From Podarcis vaucheri (lineage: Eukaryota), in assembly GCA_965113315.1 (NCBI GenBank), contig OZ220363.1: DNA of 64,000 nucleotides; one strand, given 5' to 3'. Of this stretch, positions 28,301 to 31,300 are shown one piece after another. Numbering within the stretch: the stretch's first letter is position 1; the number at the start of each line of letters is the position of its first letter. A program made the position numbers.

Positions 28301-31300
28301 TGTCTCCAAGTATATCCATGTGAGTAAGGTTGTTTAACAAATTTCAGAGCTATGGATCGCTTTAAAGCCACAGTATCTATTCTTAAGAGTGCTATAGCAT
28401 TGCTGCAGTGCTTTCAACAATCTGAACAACCTGTATTCTACAATATTTCTCTTACGTTCTATATACAAAATCTGTGGATGACTTCCATAGTTATGGGCAG
28501 TACCGACGTCTACAGATTTTAATTAGTTTTTGGTTTTTAATTAGTGTTATTTAAATAAAAATACAGCAGCAGCACCTTGTTGCCCCTCTGGGGAGAGGAT
28601 GGAACTGTATAAAAAGTTATGACAGTTGGTGTTCATGAGACTTCCGGGTTAGCGCCTCTGGCAATGGCAGATTTCCTCTCTGTGGAAATCAGGGTCTGGA
28701 CCACCACGGCGAGGCGGAGACCTACCAAAAACCACAGGCGGGAGAAGCCTGTGGACGTGGGATTCGGCTGGCACCTTTTGCGCCTCCCCTACTCATGTGG
28801 AAACCTGGTTTCGGGGATCTGGAGCGATGTGGGGTGAGCGGCGCGGTGCTTCAAATCGACTGCTTCTTTCACGGAGTGAAGCCGCATTGCTGTTGCCAGA
28901 GAGCGCTGACTTTTTCCTGTGGACAATTGGACTCTAAACAACTACCCGTGAGTAGAACGGAAAATTGGATCTCTAAACGTCTTAATTTGGCATCGAAACC
29001 GGAAGGCTTCAAACAGGAAGCCCGCCTTCCTCTTTTGTAAATAGATTGAAGCAAAGACGTTGCAAGCTAAAGCCTGGAAAGTCTTTTGTAAAGGATTAAA
29101 TCTCCATCGGTTAAAATTACTAAACCCCCCTTGGAAGCAGGAGAAGAGGGGGGAAATTCTAGATCGTTTAAGCCTGCAGGAGAGAGAGTGAAGAAAGATA
29201 AATCACCACCGTTTCGAACCTGGGAACGGGCTGCCAGTAAGATTGACGTTTTGGGAAAGTTCATTGACTGTGAATAAAACGTATGTTGACAGATAGTTAA
29301 ATAAGAGAAATATATTGTTTCCACTGCTTCCTTTTGCACTTAAAAAGGAGCAAAAAAAAAAAAAAGGAACTGAAAATTGAAACTAACTCTGTCGCTGGAT
29401 CTGCGTTTAAAAGGATGGATACAAATAGAAATTGTTTCCCCTAGAGGGAGCTTTTGAAACTGTTGCAGGAGTGGAGCTAGGGAATTTTCCAGCTGTAGAG
29501 ATTAAAGAGCGTGAGAATCAGAGTCTGACATTGGACAAGAATGTTGACAGAAGAAGCCTTAGTGATTGCATTTTGCAAGACAAGTGCTTTATTGGAACAG
29601 CTTCATGAGAAGATGGATGTGATGATTATTAAAATTGACAATTCAGGACAAAAAATGACTGAGTTGGGACAAAAAGGGAATACCTATACAGAAATTACTC
29701 AGGAATTGACCCAGGAATCTGTTTTGACATGGCAAGCTGTGGAGAAGTCGAAGGAGAAAGTTGTTGTTGAACCTCAAGTAATTCAAGTGGAGAGAGCCCC
29801 GGCCTCACAGAGGCAATTTGATGAACATAAGCTGTTGCCTTTTACGATCGAATCTAGAGAAAGCCAGATTTGGTGGGATGGAGCCCCACTTGGATTGGAG
29901 AAGGAAAGTTGGATAGATCCTCCTATGCAGGGATGCTCTGGCCTTTGGGATCTGGATTTGGGTCAGGGGGAGATTGGTGCTCTGAAATATCTTTTGGACT
30001 TTAGTTCTGACTATGGAGAATGGGCTGACCTGTCGAGAAGGAATAAAGACATTGTTAGGTTGGAGTTTCCCCGAGATCTACTCCTCAGTGCCAAAGGAAG
30101 GAAATTAAGAACAAGATCAGCAGAAGATAAAGTAAAGTGCATGTATAAATATGAAGAAGATCTGCAGAAGGGACATGGAAAAGAATTAAGAGCCTCGGAC
30201 AGAAGGTCACCAGGTTGATGGACTATATGGTATTGATAGAAAGGACTGACAGAACCCGAGACCAGGGAGAAGAGACGGTGGAGGAAGATTGAAAAAAAGT
30301 TTTAAAAAATTATTTAGAGAAATGTTGCAAAATTAATGAGTGATAGGAAAATGTTGGAATGAAATTATATGGCTTTAGTAGAAATGTTATAAGGAGTTAA
30401 GTATAAATAAGTTTTAGGATTTTGATGGTAAGATAAGGTTAAAATAAATTAAGATAATTAAATGATAGAAAGCAGTGAAAGATGGAAAGGATTTCCTGAA
30501 ATAATTAATAACTAGAACACAAAAAGGGAGGTGTGAGGAGGTCGATGAAACAAGTTAATGAAAGATAAAGATATGGAAATAATGGATGTGTTTTTAACTG
30601 TTTTTGCTTTTCTTTTTGTTTTGATGTATTGTGTCTTTTGCTTTTTTATATGTATTGTAATGTATTGATTTGTACTGTTTATTTTTTCTCTTTCTTTTTT
30701 TCTTTTTTTTTCTTTTTTCAATTCCTAAACTTTTAATAATTTTTTTTTAAAAAAAAAGACAGTTGGTGTTCATGCTCAGCATGGATCAGATAGACTATTC
30801 AGAGGTATATTTTTTGAGCTGTGTCAGTGCCAGCTAGATTTCTTCAGTGCCTTGTGGCCCCTTTTGACACTAAGCAAGGTTAAGTAGACACAACTAGAAC
30901 AAAGAAAGAAAGGAGAAAAATGAACCCAATGCGAATAAGGATTCTAATAAATACTTTTCCTTGATAGCCTAAGCAATACCAAATTCTTTATTTCAAAATA
31001 ATATATTGAATAATATAATAAATCCATAAAGACGATGAATTATTTTTGTATTCATAAAGCAGCACAGAAACTAGGAAATGCACAAGGAAAGGTTCTAATA
31101 AAAATACAGATAACAGACAGGAGAACTTGTGGACCCTAACTCCCATCAGCCTCAGCCAGCACGGTCAGTGGTCAGGGATATTGGGAGTCATAGTCCAACA
31201 ACATCTAGAGGGCCACCACTTTCCCATTCCCTTTTATTCCAGAATCCTATCTGCAGCAAGATGGAAGGGGGAAGGGGGAGATCCAGCTGAATAAAAATTC

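What the first reader, a model, noticed from the sequence alone, without database searches (positions are those of the whole stretch)
28638..30757. Complete 2.1-kb L1-dependent element with its own open 225-aa ORF and no RT: candidate undescribed non-autonomous retroposon family
Seen: a perfect 17-bp TSD and an A tail bracket the unit. It has a CpG-rich L1-type promoter (GACTTCCGG start, ETS-like), a ~900-nt leader, an intact ORF with a coiled-coil-like N-terminus and an unrecognised W/D/L-rich C-terminal half, then a decayed copy of the last ~45 codons of ORF2 and the L1 3'UTR. Established: HAL1 and bipartite elements are ORF2-less L1 derivatives mobilised in trans. Inference: the ORF stayed open while the adjacent ORF2 remnant gained a stop and a frameshift, suggesting selection. 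It might encode a truncated ORF1-like protein that co-assembles with helper L1 RNPs (parasite or dominant-negative regulator).
Basis: partly seen in the sequence, partly recalled or inferred. Interest (0 to 1): 0.7.

Follow-up and report, generated by a model that had tools for sequence, protein, structure and literature searches.

The report
ORF2-less lizard L1 with ORF1 remnant
This is a young copy of a lizard jumping gene that has lost its own copying enzyme and keeps only a crippled, still-open piece of the L1 ORF1 gene, so it must be copied by intact L1 elements; the kind is known from mammals (HAL1), but this damaged-ORF1 version in lizards is unusual.

Summary
The anatomy is real. A 2,120-bp insert (28638-30757) is flanked by a perfect 17-bp duplication and ends in A9. 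It has a CpG-rich 5' end, a 903-nt AUG-poor leader, one open 225-codon frame and no RT.

The last ~550 nt are the final ~44 codons of a lacertid L1 ORF2 plus L1 3'UTR. That remnant has one stop and one extra codon, but no frameshift.

The ORF is not "unrecognised". It is a lizard L1 ORF1 that lacks the basic N-terminus, about 50 residues of the RRM core and the last ~35 residues.

Six database proteins, two from Podarcis lilfordi, share its start and its RRM gap. Four share its ...PG end. So this is a family, not a one-off deletion.

Replacements in the family look neutral, while intact ORF1s look constrained. Yet the frame stays open and the last 15 residues are strongly conserved.

Best reading: an ORF2-less, HAL1-like parasite of L1, copied in trans. 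The remnant cannot work as ORF1p. Selection seems to act on an open, translated frame and its C-terminal tail.

Not checked: other DNA copies, dN/dS, Dfam/Repbase, structure and complex prediction.

The parts
28621..28637 (+). Left target-site duplication, GACAGTTGGTGTTCATG
   Evidence: Exact 17-mer found only here and at 30758-30774 in the window.
28638..29540 (+). Leader (putative 5'UTR and promoter), 903 nt. The first ~400 nt are CpG-rich. CCGGAAG (ETS-core-like; the name is recalled) lies at 28641-28647 (-) and 28999-29005 (+). An A14 run lies at 29352-29365.
   Evidence: CpG o/e is 0.6-1.06 against <0.5 in the flanks. Two of the window's 4 CCGGAAG sites lie here; 2.1 are expected in the whole window. 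The leader has 5 ATG where 12.9 +/- 2.7 are expected (4 of 1000 shuffles <=5). ATG o/e is 0.39, below all 128 control window-strands, while the minus strand is not depleted (6 vs 6.07). No tandem monomers, no Rfam or tRNA match, and no detectable homology to ORF1 N-termini just upstream of the ATG.
29541..29855 (+). ORF residues 1-105, derived from the ORF1 coiled-coil region. The ORF starts at a Met that is internal in intact ORF1s.
   Evidence: phmmer and tblastn: P0006 residues 52-170 align at 47-50% identity. See also alignment A1 and hhalign family vs intact ORF1 (99.2%, E 2.8e-19). The heptad register holds only for about residues 8-50.
29856..29984 (+). ORF residues 106-148, a decayed RRM beta1-alpha1 remnant. 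QIWWDGAPLG stands where intact ORF1s have NLRIRAVPE. The segment contains WIDPPMQGC and ends at the site of the ~40-53-residue RRM-core deletion (about 29981-29985).
   Evidence: Alignments A1 and hhalign. The deleted columns match the beta2-beta4 part of human L1 ORF1p in the PDB alignment (strand names recalled).
29985..30218 (+). ORF residues 149-225 plus the TGA stop: the ORF1 C-terminal domain (LEFPRDL stands for FRWEFPQGLSF) and the start of the ORF1 tail. The last 15 residues, GHGKELRASDRRSPG (30171-30215), are the best conserved part in the family.
   Evidence: 8 of the 12 phmmer hits (P0002, P0004, P0005, P0008, P0009, P0010, P0012, P0013) have their best stretch starting at residue 149. 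P0005 is 61% identical over 76 residues. Tail conservation is 0.81 against a family mean of 0.45; 0 of 20000 random column sets reach it.
30209..30215 (+). Junction of the ORF1 tail and the ORF2 tail. ORF1-type ...RRSP runs to 30212, ORF2-type T(R/Q)LMDYM starts at 30209-30215, and ACCA is shared. The ORF's TGA (30216-30218) is ORF2 sequence read out of frame.
   Evidence: P0005 has LRALDRRSPD. P0023 has HTQLMDYM. Identity to copy 2 rises from 0.37 to 0.70-0.87 across 30195-30240.
30209..30343 (+). Remnant of the last ~44 codons of L1 ORF2 with its original stop. It has an in-frame TGA at 30290-30292 and one extra codon.
   Evidence: tblastn of P0016, P0017, P0020 and P0023. P0023 is a 1246-aa protein with Exo_endo_phos and RVT_1 domains.
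30344..30748 (+). L1 3'UTR. It has a conserved block at 30508-30581 that contains GGGAGGTGTGAGGAGG (30526-30541), a T-rich last ~160 nt, AATAAT at 30735-30740, and T9.
   Evidence: Alignment with the second L1 3' end in the window. Sliding identity in the block is 0.80-0.90.
30749..30757 (+). A9 tail
   Evidence: Read directly.
30758..30774 (+). Right target-site duplication

Best explanation
Shown:
- The unit is a retroposed copy (17-bp duplication, A tail) of an L1 derivative that encodes no endonuclease or reverse transcriptase.
- It consists of a CpG-rich, AUG-poor 0.9-kb leader, a 225-codon ORF1 remnant, the last ~44 codons of ORF2 (now broken by a stop), an L1 3'UTR and A9.
- Compared with intact lizard L1 ORF1 proteins, the ORF lacks three things: the basic N-terminal region, about 40-53 residues of the RRM core, and the last ~35 residues.
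- The same architecture recurs in six public proteins, two of them from Podarcis lilfordi. So the deletions are ancestral to a diverged family.

Inferred:
- The RNA is made by pol II from the element's own 5' end.
- It is translated like an mRNA.
- It is reverse-transcribed at a nicked target by ORF2p of an autonomous lacertid L1, probably with that L1's ORF1p, acting in trans on its A tail.
- The remnant protein is acidic, has no RRM core and no basic N-terminus, and so cannot serve as an ORF1p chaperone.
- Its residues change as if neutral, yet nonsense and frameshift changes have been kept out and the C-terminal 15 residues are conserved. I therefore take the selected property to be an open, ribosome-covered frame that runs to that tail. 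This would give mRNA-like stability and access to helper proteins, with the tail as a possible short motif. A folded ORF1-like protein is the less likely target of selection.

The junction may have arisen by deletion or template switch at the shared ACCA, or by splicing of an L1 RNA. I could not tell which.
For: Retroposition hallmarks and coordinates.

No RT.

ORF2 tail:
- In one search, 9 of 9 candidates were Podarcis proteins (76-91% identical to the window's second L1 tail).
- P0023 carries EN and RT domains.
- tblastn places the last ~43 residues at 30212-30340.

ORF1 origin:
- 12 proteins reached E<=0.001 in the 1.84-billion library, 7 of them <=1e-10.
- Supporting alignments: A1 and hhalign at 99.2%.
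- The RRM-CTD profile of the intact relatives hits human LINE-1 ORF1p structures as its top 3 of 9 PDB hits (E 1.2e-4 to 2e-4, 133 of 160 positions).
- ORF1-like and ORF2 parts are physically linked in P0005, P0006 and P0017.

Family:
- One search gave 1 hit among 270 candidates. One search gave 6 hits among 2931 candidates.
- All 6 start at the same Met.
- 4 of the 4 relatives in A1 share the 40-column RRM gap. P0014 shares it too, by reading.
- P0001, P0002, P0007 and P0014 end ...LRASDxRxPG like the window ORF.

Open frame:
- 0 stops in 225 codons against 7-17 in the other frames.
- In the neutral simulation, pairwise identity of ~53% corresponds to d=0.15 per lineage. There, 1.05% of 4000 runs stay stop-free, with a mean of 4.5 stops.
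- No compensated frameshifts: 0 of 24 alternative-frame comparisons had z>4.

Relaxed residues:
- The mean BLOSUM62 score of mismatches is -0.19 to -0.94 in the 10 family pairs.
- The neutral expectation is -0.53 to -0.89 (sd ~0.14).
- Intact ORF1 pairs give -0.21 to +0.01.

Other:
- Tail conservation.
- AUG-poor leader, on one strand only.
- Charge: ORF pI 5.2. The missing N-terminal regions carry +2 to +7.

Literature:
- Pol II transcripts need ORF1p as well as ORF2p in trans (PMC2666806, abstract).
- A basic N-terminus and the coiled coil are essential in human ORF1p (PMC5940361, abstract).
- Lizard clade 1 L1s have ~1.3-kb 5'UTRs (PMC5381506, passages).
Against: - Only one DNA copy could be examined. 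Copy number, a shared 5' end and a shared junction at DNA level are unproven.
- The relatives are predicted proteins. P0001 and P0002 are gene models that could be spliced. P0003, P0007, P0014 and P0015 come from unnamed ~1-kb contigs.
- P0003 (174 aa) stops early. P0015 (154 aa) departs from P0007 after about residue 115. So not all members are intact.
- Two of the five upstream AUGs have strong context (28664, a 57-codon uORF; 29415, a 9-codon uORF). The main AUG is therefore not the first good start.
- The target site GTTAT|GACAG is not the TT|AAAA known for mammalian L1 (recalled).
- The A tail is only 9 nt.
- Pfam does not recognise the ORF, nor even the intact lizard ORF1s, as Transposase_22.
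- A purely stability-based selection should weaken toward the 3' end of the ORF, yet that end is the most conserved part.
- The neutral simulation uses the present ORF as ancestor and ignores indels. The heptad index is home-made.
Confidence: 0.55

Rival explanations
1. The ORF encodes a working ORF1-derived partner. Its coiled coil co-assembles with helper ORF1p. That would either recruit the helper coat to the parasite's own RNA in cis, or poison helper trimers as a dominant-negative regulator.
For: - Residues 1-105 are homologous to the ORF1 coiled coil.
- The intact lizard coiled coil resembles trimeric coiled coils (PDB 2wpq, E 7.7e-7).
- HeT-A ORF1p interacts with the ORF1p of TART and TAHRE (bioRxiv 10.1101/2025.06.09.658640, passages).
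- L1TD1 associates with ORF1p (PMC11925450, search listing only).
- The frame is kept open.
Against: - The heptad register holds for only ~40-50 residues, against 80-100 in intact ORF1s.
- Conservation of the N-terminal helix is not above the family average (2970 of 20000 random sets reach it).
- Replacements are neutral-like.
- The basic N-terminus, which the suppressive human fragments needed, is absent.
- Closest intact coiled coil in the databases is only 50% identical.
Confidence: 0.2
2. The element is a dead relic. Internal deletions of L1 are frequent, this copy is one of them, and its ORF is open by chance and by the way it was picked.
For: - Replacements look neutral.
- Only one DNA copy was seen.
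- Other ORF1::ORF2 fusions exist among lizard proteins (P0006, P0017), so such deletions or splices are common.
Against: - Six relatives share the start, and the RRM gap is shown in five of them.
- Four relatives also share the stop, at 29-68% pairwise identity among the five complete members.
- Stop-free probability is ~1% per lineage at that divergence, before counting indels.
- A stop fixed in a master lineage would be inherited by all its copies, so picking open frames cannot rescue this explanation.
- The copy is young: TSD 17 of 17 identical, CpG kept. It therefore reflects an active source.
Confidence: 0.08
3. The 5' 0.9 kb is not the family's own promoter and leader. It is a 5'-transduced or captured host sequence, or an older retrocopy ending in the A14 run at 29352-29365, joined to a 5'-truncated L1 derivative. 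On this view the unit is a one-time chimera at its 5' end.
For: - No homologue of the leader was found in the window.
- There is no similarity to ORF1 N-termini directly upstream of the ATG.
- An internal A14 run divides the leader.
Against: - The AUG depletion is strand-specific and stronger than in any of 128 control window-strands.
- The CpG-rich part begins exactly at the TSD boundary.
- Lizard clade 1 L1s have long 5'UTRs (PMC5381506 passages).
Confidence: 0.15

Closest known systems
HAL1 (half-L1) of mammals
   Same: A non-autonomous L1 derivative that lost ORF2, keeps ORF1-derived coding sequence, and depends on L1 in trans. HAL1 arose several times (PMC5753468, passages).
   Different: HAL1 is defined as encoding ORF1p. 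Here the ORF1 lacks the RRM core, the basic N-terminus and its tail, and it evolves as if unconstrained in sequence. The host is a lacertid lizard. The primary HAL1 paper (Bao and Jurka 2010) was not held.
SpIREs (spliced integrated retrotransposed elements) and other internally deleted L1 copies
   Same: L1 copies with a precise internal gap. A CAG|G-like sequence lies at the junction (by reading).
   Different: The human elements are described as defective by-products, not as diverged families with a maintained ORF (PMC5860796; I saw only the search listing). Splice-site use cannot be tested without the parent L1 DNA.
HeT-A and other ORF1-only telomeric Jockey-clade elements of Drosophila
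   Same: ORF2 has been lost repeatedly. ORF1-only lineages persist, diversify and use ORF2p of other families (bioRxiv 10.1101/2025.06.09.658640, passages).
   Different: They belong to a different LINE clade, have an intact gag-like ORF1 with a known targeting role, and occupy a telomeric niche.
Truncated human ORF1 proteins from defective L1 loci
   Same: ORF1 fragments with a coiled coil, expressed from defective elements, can act on L1 in trans (PMC5605252, abstract).
   Different: Those are decay products of single loci and keep the N-terminus. Here the truncated form is the heritable state of a family and lacks the N-terminus.
Domesticated ORF1 derivatives (L1TD1; Lyosin and other ORF1 exons)
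   Same: ORF1-derived coding sequence kept open outside an autonomous L1 (PMC12129022, abstract and section 11).
   Different: Those are single-copy host genes under purifying selection. This is a TSD-flanked mobile copy with neutral-like replacements.
SVA and processed pseudogenes (pol II RNAs mobilised by L1 in trans)
   Same: The likely way of copying is the same: a polyadenylated pol II RNA, with ORF2p and ORF1p supplied in trans (PMC2666806, abstract).
   Different: This element carries L1's own 3' end and an ORF1 remnant.

Membership tests
L1-clade derivative | 3' end homologous to an L1 ORF2 C-terminus and 3'UTR | tested here: met
   30212-30340 aligns to the last ~43 residues of Podarcis ORF2 proteins. 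P0023 has EN and RT domains. The 3'UTR aligns to a second L1 3' end in the window.
L1-clade derivative | ORF1 of the coiled-coil / RRM / CTD type | tested here: met
   The ORF aligns to ~350-aa lizard proteins. Their RRM-CTD profile hits human LINE-1 ORF1p structures (top 3 of 9, E 1.2e-4).
L1-clade derivative | Insertion hallmarks of target-primed reverse transcription (TSD, A tail) | tested here: met
   Perfect 17-bp TSD and an A9 tail.
L1-clade derivative | Endonuclease target TT|AAAA (mammalian consensus, recalled) | tested here: not met
   The site reads GTTAT|GACAG. The preference of lizard L1 endonucleases was not available to me.
Autonomous L1 | Encodes EN and RT (ORF2) | tested here: not met
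   Only ~44 terminal ORF2 codons remain, with a stop.
HAL1-type element | L1 derivative without ORF2 | tested here: met
HAL1-type element | Encodes a complete ORF1p | tested here: not met
   About 50-65 N-terminal residues, 40-53 RRM-core residues and ~35 C-terminal residues are missing.
HAL1-type element | Amplified as a family of its own | tested here: inconclusive
   Six protein relatives have the same architecture, but no DNA copies could be searched.
Functional L1 ORF1p | Basic N-terminal region | tested here: not met
   The ORF starts at a Met that is internal in intact ORF1s. The missing regions carry +2 to +7 net charge, while ORF residues 1-60 carry -5. The requirement is known for human ORF1p (PMC5940361 abstract).
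Functional L1 ORF1p | Long continuous coiled coil | tested here: inconclusive
   The home-made heptad index gives one register for ~40-50 residues, against 80-100 in intact relatives.
Functional L1 ORF1p | Complete RRM | tested here: not met
   There is a gap of 40-53 columns, and the NLRIRAVPE motif is replaced by QIWWDGAPLG.
Pfam Transposase_22 and related ORF1 models | Match to the Pfam models | tested here: not met
   No match for the ORF at E<=10. None for its short relatives P0001, P0002, P0003 and P0007 or for intact P0006 and P0011 at E<=0.01. None for five intact lizard relatives (P0008, P0009, P0010, P0012, P0013) at E<=10. The models miss this lizard lineage as a whole.
SpIRE (spliced L1 retrocopy) | Gap bounded by splice donor and acceptor of the parent L1 | not testable with these tools
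Only the junction sequence ...TCACCAGGTTGATGG could be read.

The most novel reading that the evidence does not exclude
The ORF1 remnant has been repurposed. It would be a mostly unconstrained, acidic, probably disordered protein whose only conserved part is a C-terminal 15-residue tail (GHG[KR][ED]LRASDxRxPG), perhaps together with WIDPPMQGC. That tail would be a short motif that hooks the nascent RNP to helper L1 proteins or to a host factor. The family would then be a protein-coding parasite of L1 that needs translation in cis but no ORF1p activity. No such strategy has been described for L1 parasites in the papers I searched.
Probability: 0.15. Interest if true: 0.7.

Novelty: new variant of a known kind. 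Interest (0 to 1): 0.45.

Why it matters
ORF2-less L1 parasites that keep ORF1 are textbook for mammals (HAL1). My six literature searches found no account of them in lizards, where many L1 lineages coexist.

This family is a natural deletion experiment. It has persisted and diverged without the RRM core and the basic N-terminus, both held essential for ORF1p. Yet it has not been allowed to lose its reading frame or its C-terminal tail.

If confirmed at the DNA level, it separates two requirements for mobilisation in trans: being translated, and making a working ORF1p. It also explains several 'hypothetical proteins' in Podarcis annotations as transposon remnants.

Tried and rejected
Hypotheses tested and dropped:
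- The 42 in-frame codons from ATG 29415 (4 stops) as the decayed ORF1 N-terminus. There was no significant similarity to six intact N-termini (best 29 of 500 shuffles).
- Hidden compensated frameshifts as the cause of the low identity. 0 of 24 alternative-frame comparisons had z>4.
- A SINE-like or small-RNA head. Rfam gave one sub-threshold match (whalefall-1, 19.9 bits against a gathering score of 37) in the region and none at gathering in the window. ARAGORN found 0 tRNAs.
- Mouse-type tandem promoter monomers in the leader. None were found.

Searches that gave nothing useful:
- Pfam on the ORF, its relatives and the 133-codon GC-rich frame 28639-29040.
- PDB with P0009 alone: 0 hits. With the family-plus-intact profile A5: only weak coiled-coil hits.
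- The window itself holds no second ORF1-like locus.

Tools or sources not available:
- The protein-atlas search would not take new sequences.
- Bao and Jurka 2010 is not held.
- Two paper searches failed on term format and were re-sent corrected.
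Full report
**Observation.** The 17-mer GACAGTTGGTGTTCATG occurs twice in the window, at 28621-28637 and 30758-30774, and nowhere else. Between the two copies lie 2,120 bp (28638-30757). This unit starts AGACTTCCGGG and ends ...AATAA-T9-A9. CpG o/e is 0.6-1.06 over 28601-29000 and 0-0.5 in the flanks. Table 1 translation gives one ORF of 225 codons (29541-30218). 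The other five frames of the same stretch carry 7-17 stops. Nothing in the unit encodes an endonuclease or a reverse transcriptase.

**Source organism.** I do not take the contig for human. All named best matches are proteins of the lacertid lizards Podarcis lilfordi and P. muralis. The window is therefore probably from Podarcis or a close relative, which is an inference from best hits only. The two N runs (54922-55051, 55064-55251) were left alone.

**The 3' module.**
- The window holds a second L1 3' end at about 36726-37250. It is 71.5% identical to 30216-30692 over 492 columns.
- Its last 47 codons were used as a query. All 9 of 9 candidates were Podarcis proteins at 76-91% identity.
- One of them, P0023, is 1246 aa with Exo_endo_phos and RVT_1 domains. 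It ends ...EEWHTQLMDYMELAEMTGRIRDLGEEAVEEDWKKFKEYLQKHYKLYEC.
- tblastn places the last ~43 residues of these ORF2 proteins on 30212-30340 of the element. Identity is 63% to P0017, and 56% over 52 residues to P0016.
- The remnant has one in-frame TGA (30290-30292) where relatives have W, and one extra codon. Its own terminal stops follow at 30341-30346. I found no frameshift, contrary to the finding.
- Identity to the second copy rises sharply across 30195-30240. It is highest in the ORF2 remnant (0.80-0.87) and in a 3'UTR block at 30508-30581 (0.80-0.90), which contains GGGAGGTGTGAGGAGG.

**The ORF is an ORF1 remnant.**
- Pfam finds nothing in it.
- A full HMMER scan of 1.84 billion representatives gave 12 proteins at E<=0.001, 7 of them at <=1e-10.
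- Five hits (P0006, P0008, P0010, P0011, P0013) are 274-362 aa. P0008, P0010 and P0013 have a basic N-terminus, a long heptad region, an NLRIRAVPE-type motif and a FRWEFPQGLSF-type C-terminal domain. P0011 breaks off before that C-terminal motif, and P0006 runs into ORF2 sequence after the start of the RRM.
- Pfam does not name these either, even at E<=10.
- A profile of their RRM-CTD part hits human LINE-1 ORF1p crystal and NMR structures as its three best of nine PDB matches (2ykp and 2yko at E 1.2e-4, 2ldy at 2e-4; 133 of 160 positions).
- ORF1-like and ORF2 segments are physically joined in P0005, P0006 and P0017. These are L1 ORF1 proteins.
- The alignment and a profile-profile comparison (99.2%, E 2.8e-19, 195 columns) show what the window ORF is. 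It is ORF1 starting at a Met that is internal in three of the five intact proteins, so it lacks ~50-65 basic residues.
- Next comes the coiled-coil region (residues 1-105), then a decayed RRM beta1-alpha1 (residues 106-148, with QIWWDGAPLG in place of NLRIRAVPE).
- A gap of 40-53 residues then removes the rest of the RRM.
- Then come the C-terminal domain and the first part of the ORF1 tail (residues 149-225). P0005 is 61% identical over 76 residues there.
- ORF1 homology runs to ...RRSP (30212). ORF2 homology starts at T(R/Q)LMDYM (30209-30215). The four bases ACCA are shared. The ORF's TGA (30216-30218) is ORF2 sequence read out of frame.
- So the 'unrecognised W/D/L-rich half' is recognisable ORF1.

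**A family, not a one-off.**
- Word-indexed searches found 1 relative among 270 candidates with the single ORF. With a family profile they found 6 among 2931 candidates.
- The six are P0001 and P0002 (Podarcis lilfordi 'hypothetical proteins') and P0003, P0007, P0014 and P0015 (unnamed ~1-kb contigs).
- All six start at the same Met.
- The four included in alignment A1 share the 40-column RRM gap. P0014 shares it too, by reading.
- P0001, P0002, P0007 and P0014 end ...LRASDxRxPG exactly as the window ORF does.
- P0003 ends early (174 aa). P0015 departs from P0007 after about residue 115 (154 aa).
- Pairwise identity among the seven members is 22-82%. The window ORF is the member closest to intact ORF1s.
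- Three shared derived features at such divergence mean the deletions are old and the lineage has kept propagating.
- No DNA-level search for copies was possible.

**Is the ORF selected?**
- I evolved the ORF in silico without selection. Pairwise amino-acid identity of ~53%, as between the window ORF and P0001, corresponds to 0.15 substitutions per site per lineage. At that point only 1.05% of 4000 runs are stop-free, with a mean of 4.5 stops. At 0.2 the figure is 0.45%. Indels are not counted.
- The copy is young (TSD 17 of 17, CpG retained), so it reports the state of an active source.
- A stop fixed in a source lineage would be in all its descendants. Picking open frames cannot explain open frames in several diverged members.
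- The ORF2 remnant next door (44 codons) has gained one stop, which is what neutral decay predicts for its length.
- There are no hidden compensated frameshifts: 0 of 24 alternative-frame comparisons had z>4, and the best was 2.5.
- Against this stands a clear negative. Mismatched columns in the ten family pairs have a mean BLOSUM62 score of -0.19 to -0.94. That matches the neutral simulation (-0.53 to -0.89, sd ~0.14). Intact lizard ORF1 pairs at the same identity score -0.21 to +0.01.
- So residue chemistry is not detectably constrained.
- One segment is the exception. The last 15 residues are 0.81 identical in the family against a mean of 0.45, and 0 of 20000 random column sets reach this.
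- WIDPPMQGC is marginal (651 of 20000). The N-terminal helix is not distinguished (2970 of 20000).

**Leader.**
- The 903-nt leader has 5 ATGs where dinucleotide shuffles give 12.9 +/- 2.7 (4 of 1000 shuffles <=5).
- Its o/e of 0.39 is lower than in all 128 control window-strands. Windows holding N or overlapping the element were dropped from the controls. The opposite strand is not depleted (6 vs 6.07).
- This is what a 5'UTR shaped for scanning looks like.
- Long 5'UTRs (~1.3 kb) are reported for lizard clade 1 L1 (PMC5381506, passages).
- Two of the five uAUGs do have strong context.
- CCGGAAG occurs 4 times in the window, twice in the first 370 nt of the element. Calling it ETS-like rests on recall.
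- Whether this 5' end is shared by other copies is unknown.

**What the protein can and cannot be.**
- It is acidic overall (pI 5.2, net charge -7), with a basic C-terminal third (+5).
- The missing N-terminal regions of intact relatives carry +2 to +7.
- A home-made heptad index shows one register over 80-100 residues in intact ORF1s. In the window ORF it holds over only about residues 8-50.
- In human ORF1p the basic N-terminus and the coiled coil are essential (PMC5940361, abstract).
- The remnant therefore cannot act as a canonical ORF1p.

**Mechanism.**
- Best supported: a pol II transcript with L1's own 3' end and an A tail is copied in trans by ORF2p of a resident autonomous L1. Pol II RNAs also need ORF1p in trans (PMC2666806, abstract).
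- Intact 1246-aa ORF2 proteins exist in Podarcis, so helpers are at hand.
- The frame is open, the residues look neutral, the leader is AUG-poor and the C-terminal tail is conserved. I read this as selection for a translated frame that reaches that tail. That means mRNA-like stability and ribosome association, possibly with a short C-terminal motif.
Truncated human ORF1p acts on L1 in trans (PMC5605252, abstract). HeT-A ORF1p interacts with other ORF1ps.
- It is weakened by the eroded heptads, the missing N-terminus and the unremarkable conservation of the N-terminal part.

**Comparison and novelty.**
- The closest known kind is HAL1, 'a non-autonomous derivative of L1 [that] encodes only ORF1p' and that arose several times in mammals (PMC5753468, passages).
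- This element works like HAL1 in depending on L1. It fails the defining feature of a complete ORF1p.
- Six full-text searches turned up no description of ORF2-less L1 families in lizards.
- PMC5381506 does not contain the words non-autonomous or nonautonomous.
- Repbase, Dfam and paper supplements could not be consulted, so the family may well be catalogued there.
- I rate it a new variant of a known kind, of moderate interest.

Noticed in passing
window 36726-37250 (+): A second, 5'-truncated L1 3' end. It has the last 45 ORF2 codons intact (91% identical to P. lilfordi P0016), then a 3'UTR with AATAAA and an A-rich tail. Its 5' truncation point lies within about 5 codons of the ORF1/ORF2 junction of the studied element. 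No clear TSD was found.
   Followed up: partly
window 39700-43260 (+): A large non-L1 LINE with a 291-codon endonuclease frame (40193-41068, Exo_endo_phos) and a 542-codon RT frame (41624-43252, RVT_1). It is only 29% identical to the L1 ORF2 P0023. Two 78-nt direct repeats precede it (39701-39778 and 39811-39888, 96% identical).
   Followed up: partly
window 26109-26351, 35624-35878, 48053-48306 (direct); 51336-51556, 58274-58505 (inverted): Five copies of a ~220-250-nt interspersed repeat (68-96% identical), probably a SINE. ARAGORN finds no tRNA in the window.
   Followed up: no
window 17235-17497, 23429-23675 (direct); 45340-45608 (inverted): Three copies of another ~250-nt repeat family (83-87% identical).
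   Followed up: no
protein P0004 (unnamed representative, 422 aa): A RING / B-box (TRIM-like) N-terminus is followed by an L1 ORF1 RRM-CTD. This is either a fusion gene or a gene-model artefact. A TRIM fusion is not among the four ORF1 fusion genes listed in PMC12129022 section 11.
   Followed up: partly
proteins P0006, P0017, P0020: These are other ORF1::ORF2 or host::ORF2-tail fusions. P0006 joins the ORF1 N-half to ORF2 residues 748-894. P0017 (P. lilfordi) joins the first ~59 ORF1 residues in frame to the last 65 ORF2 residues. P0017 and P0020 enter ORF2 at the same point (~residue 1180), which suggests a cryptic splice acceptor there.
   Followed up: partly
intact lizard ORF1 proteins P0008, P0010, P0011, P0013 (alignment A3): Their coiled coil carries repeated xNTxxI motifs. 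It matches trimeric autotransporter adhesin coiled coils (2wpq E 7.7e-7, 2wpr 8.5e-6). This bears on the question raised in PMC5381506 of whether lizard ORF1p trimerises.
   Followed up: no
window 30508-30581: This 3'UTR block is 80-90% identical between two L1 3' ends that are otherwise ~70% identical. It includes a G-run motif, GGGAGGTGTGAGGAGG (30526-30541), that fits a two-tetrad G-quadruplex pattern.
   Followed up: partly
window 54922-55051 and 55064-55251: Two runs of N (130 and 188 bases) next to a CA/GT microsatellite. They were left untouched.
   Followed up: no
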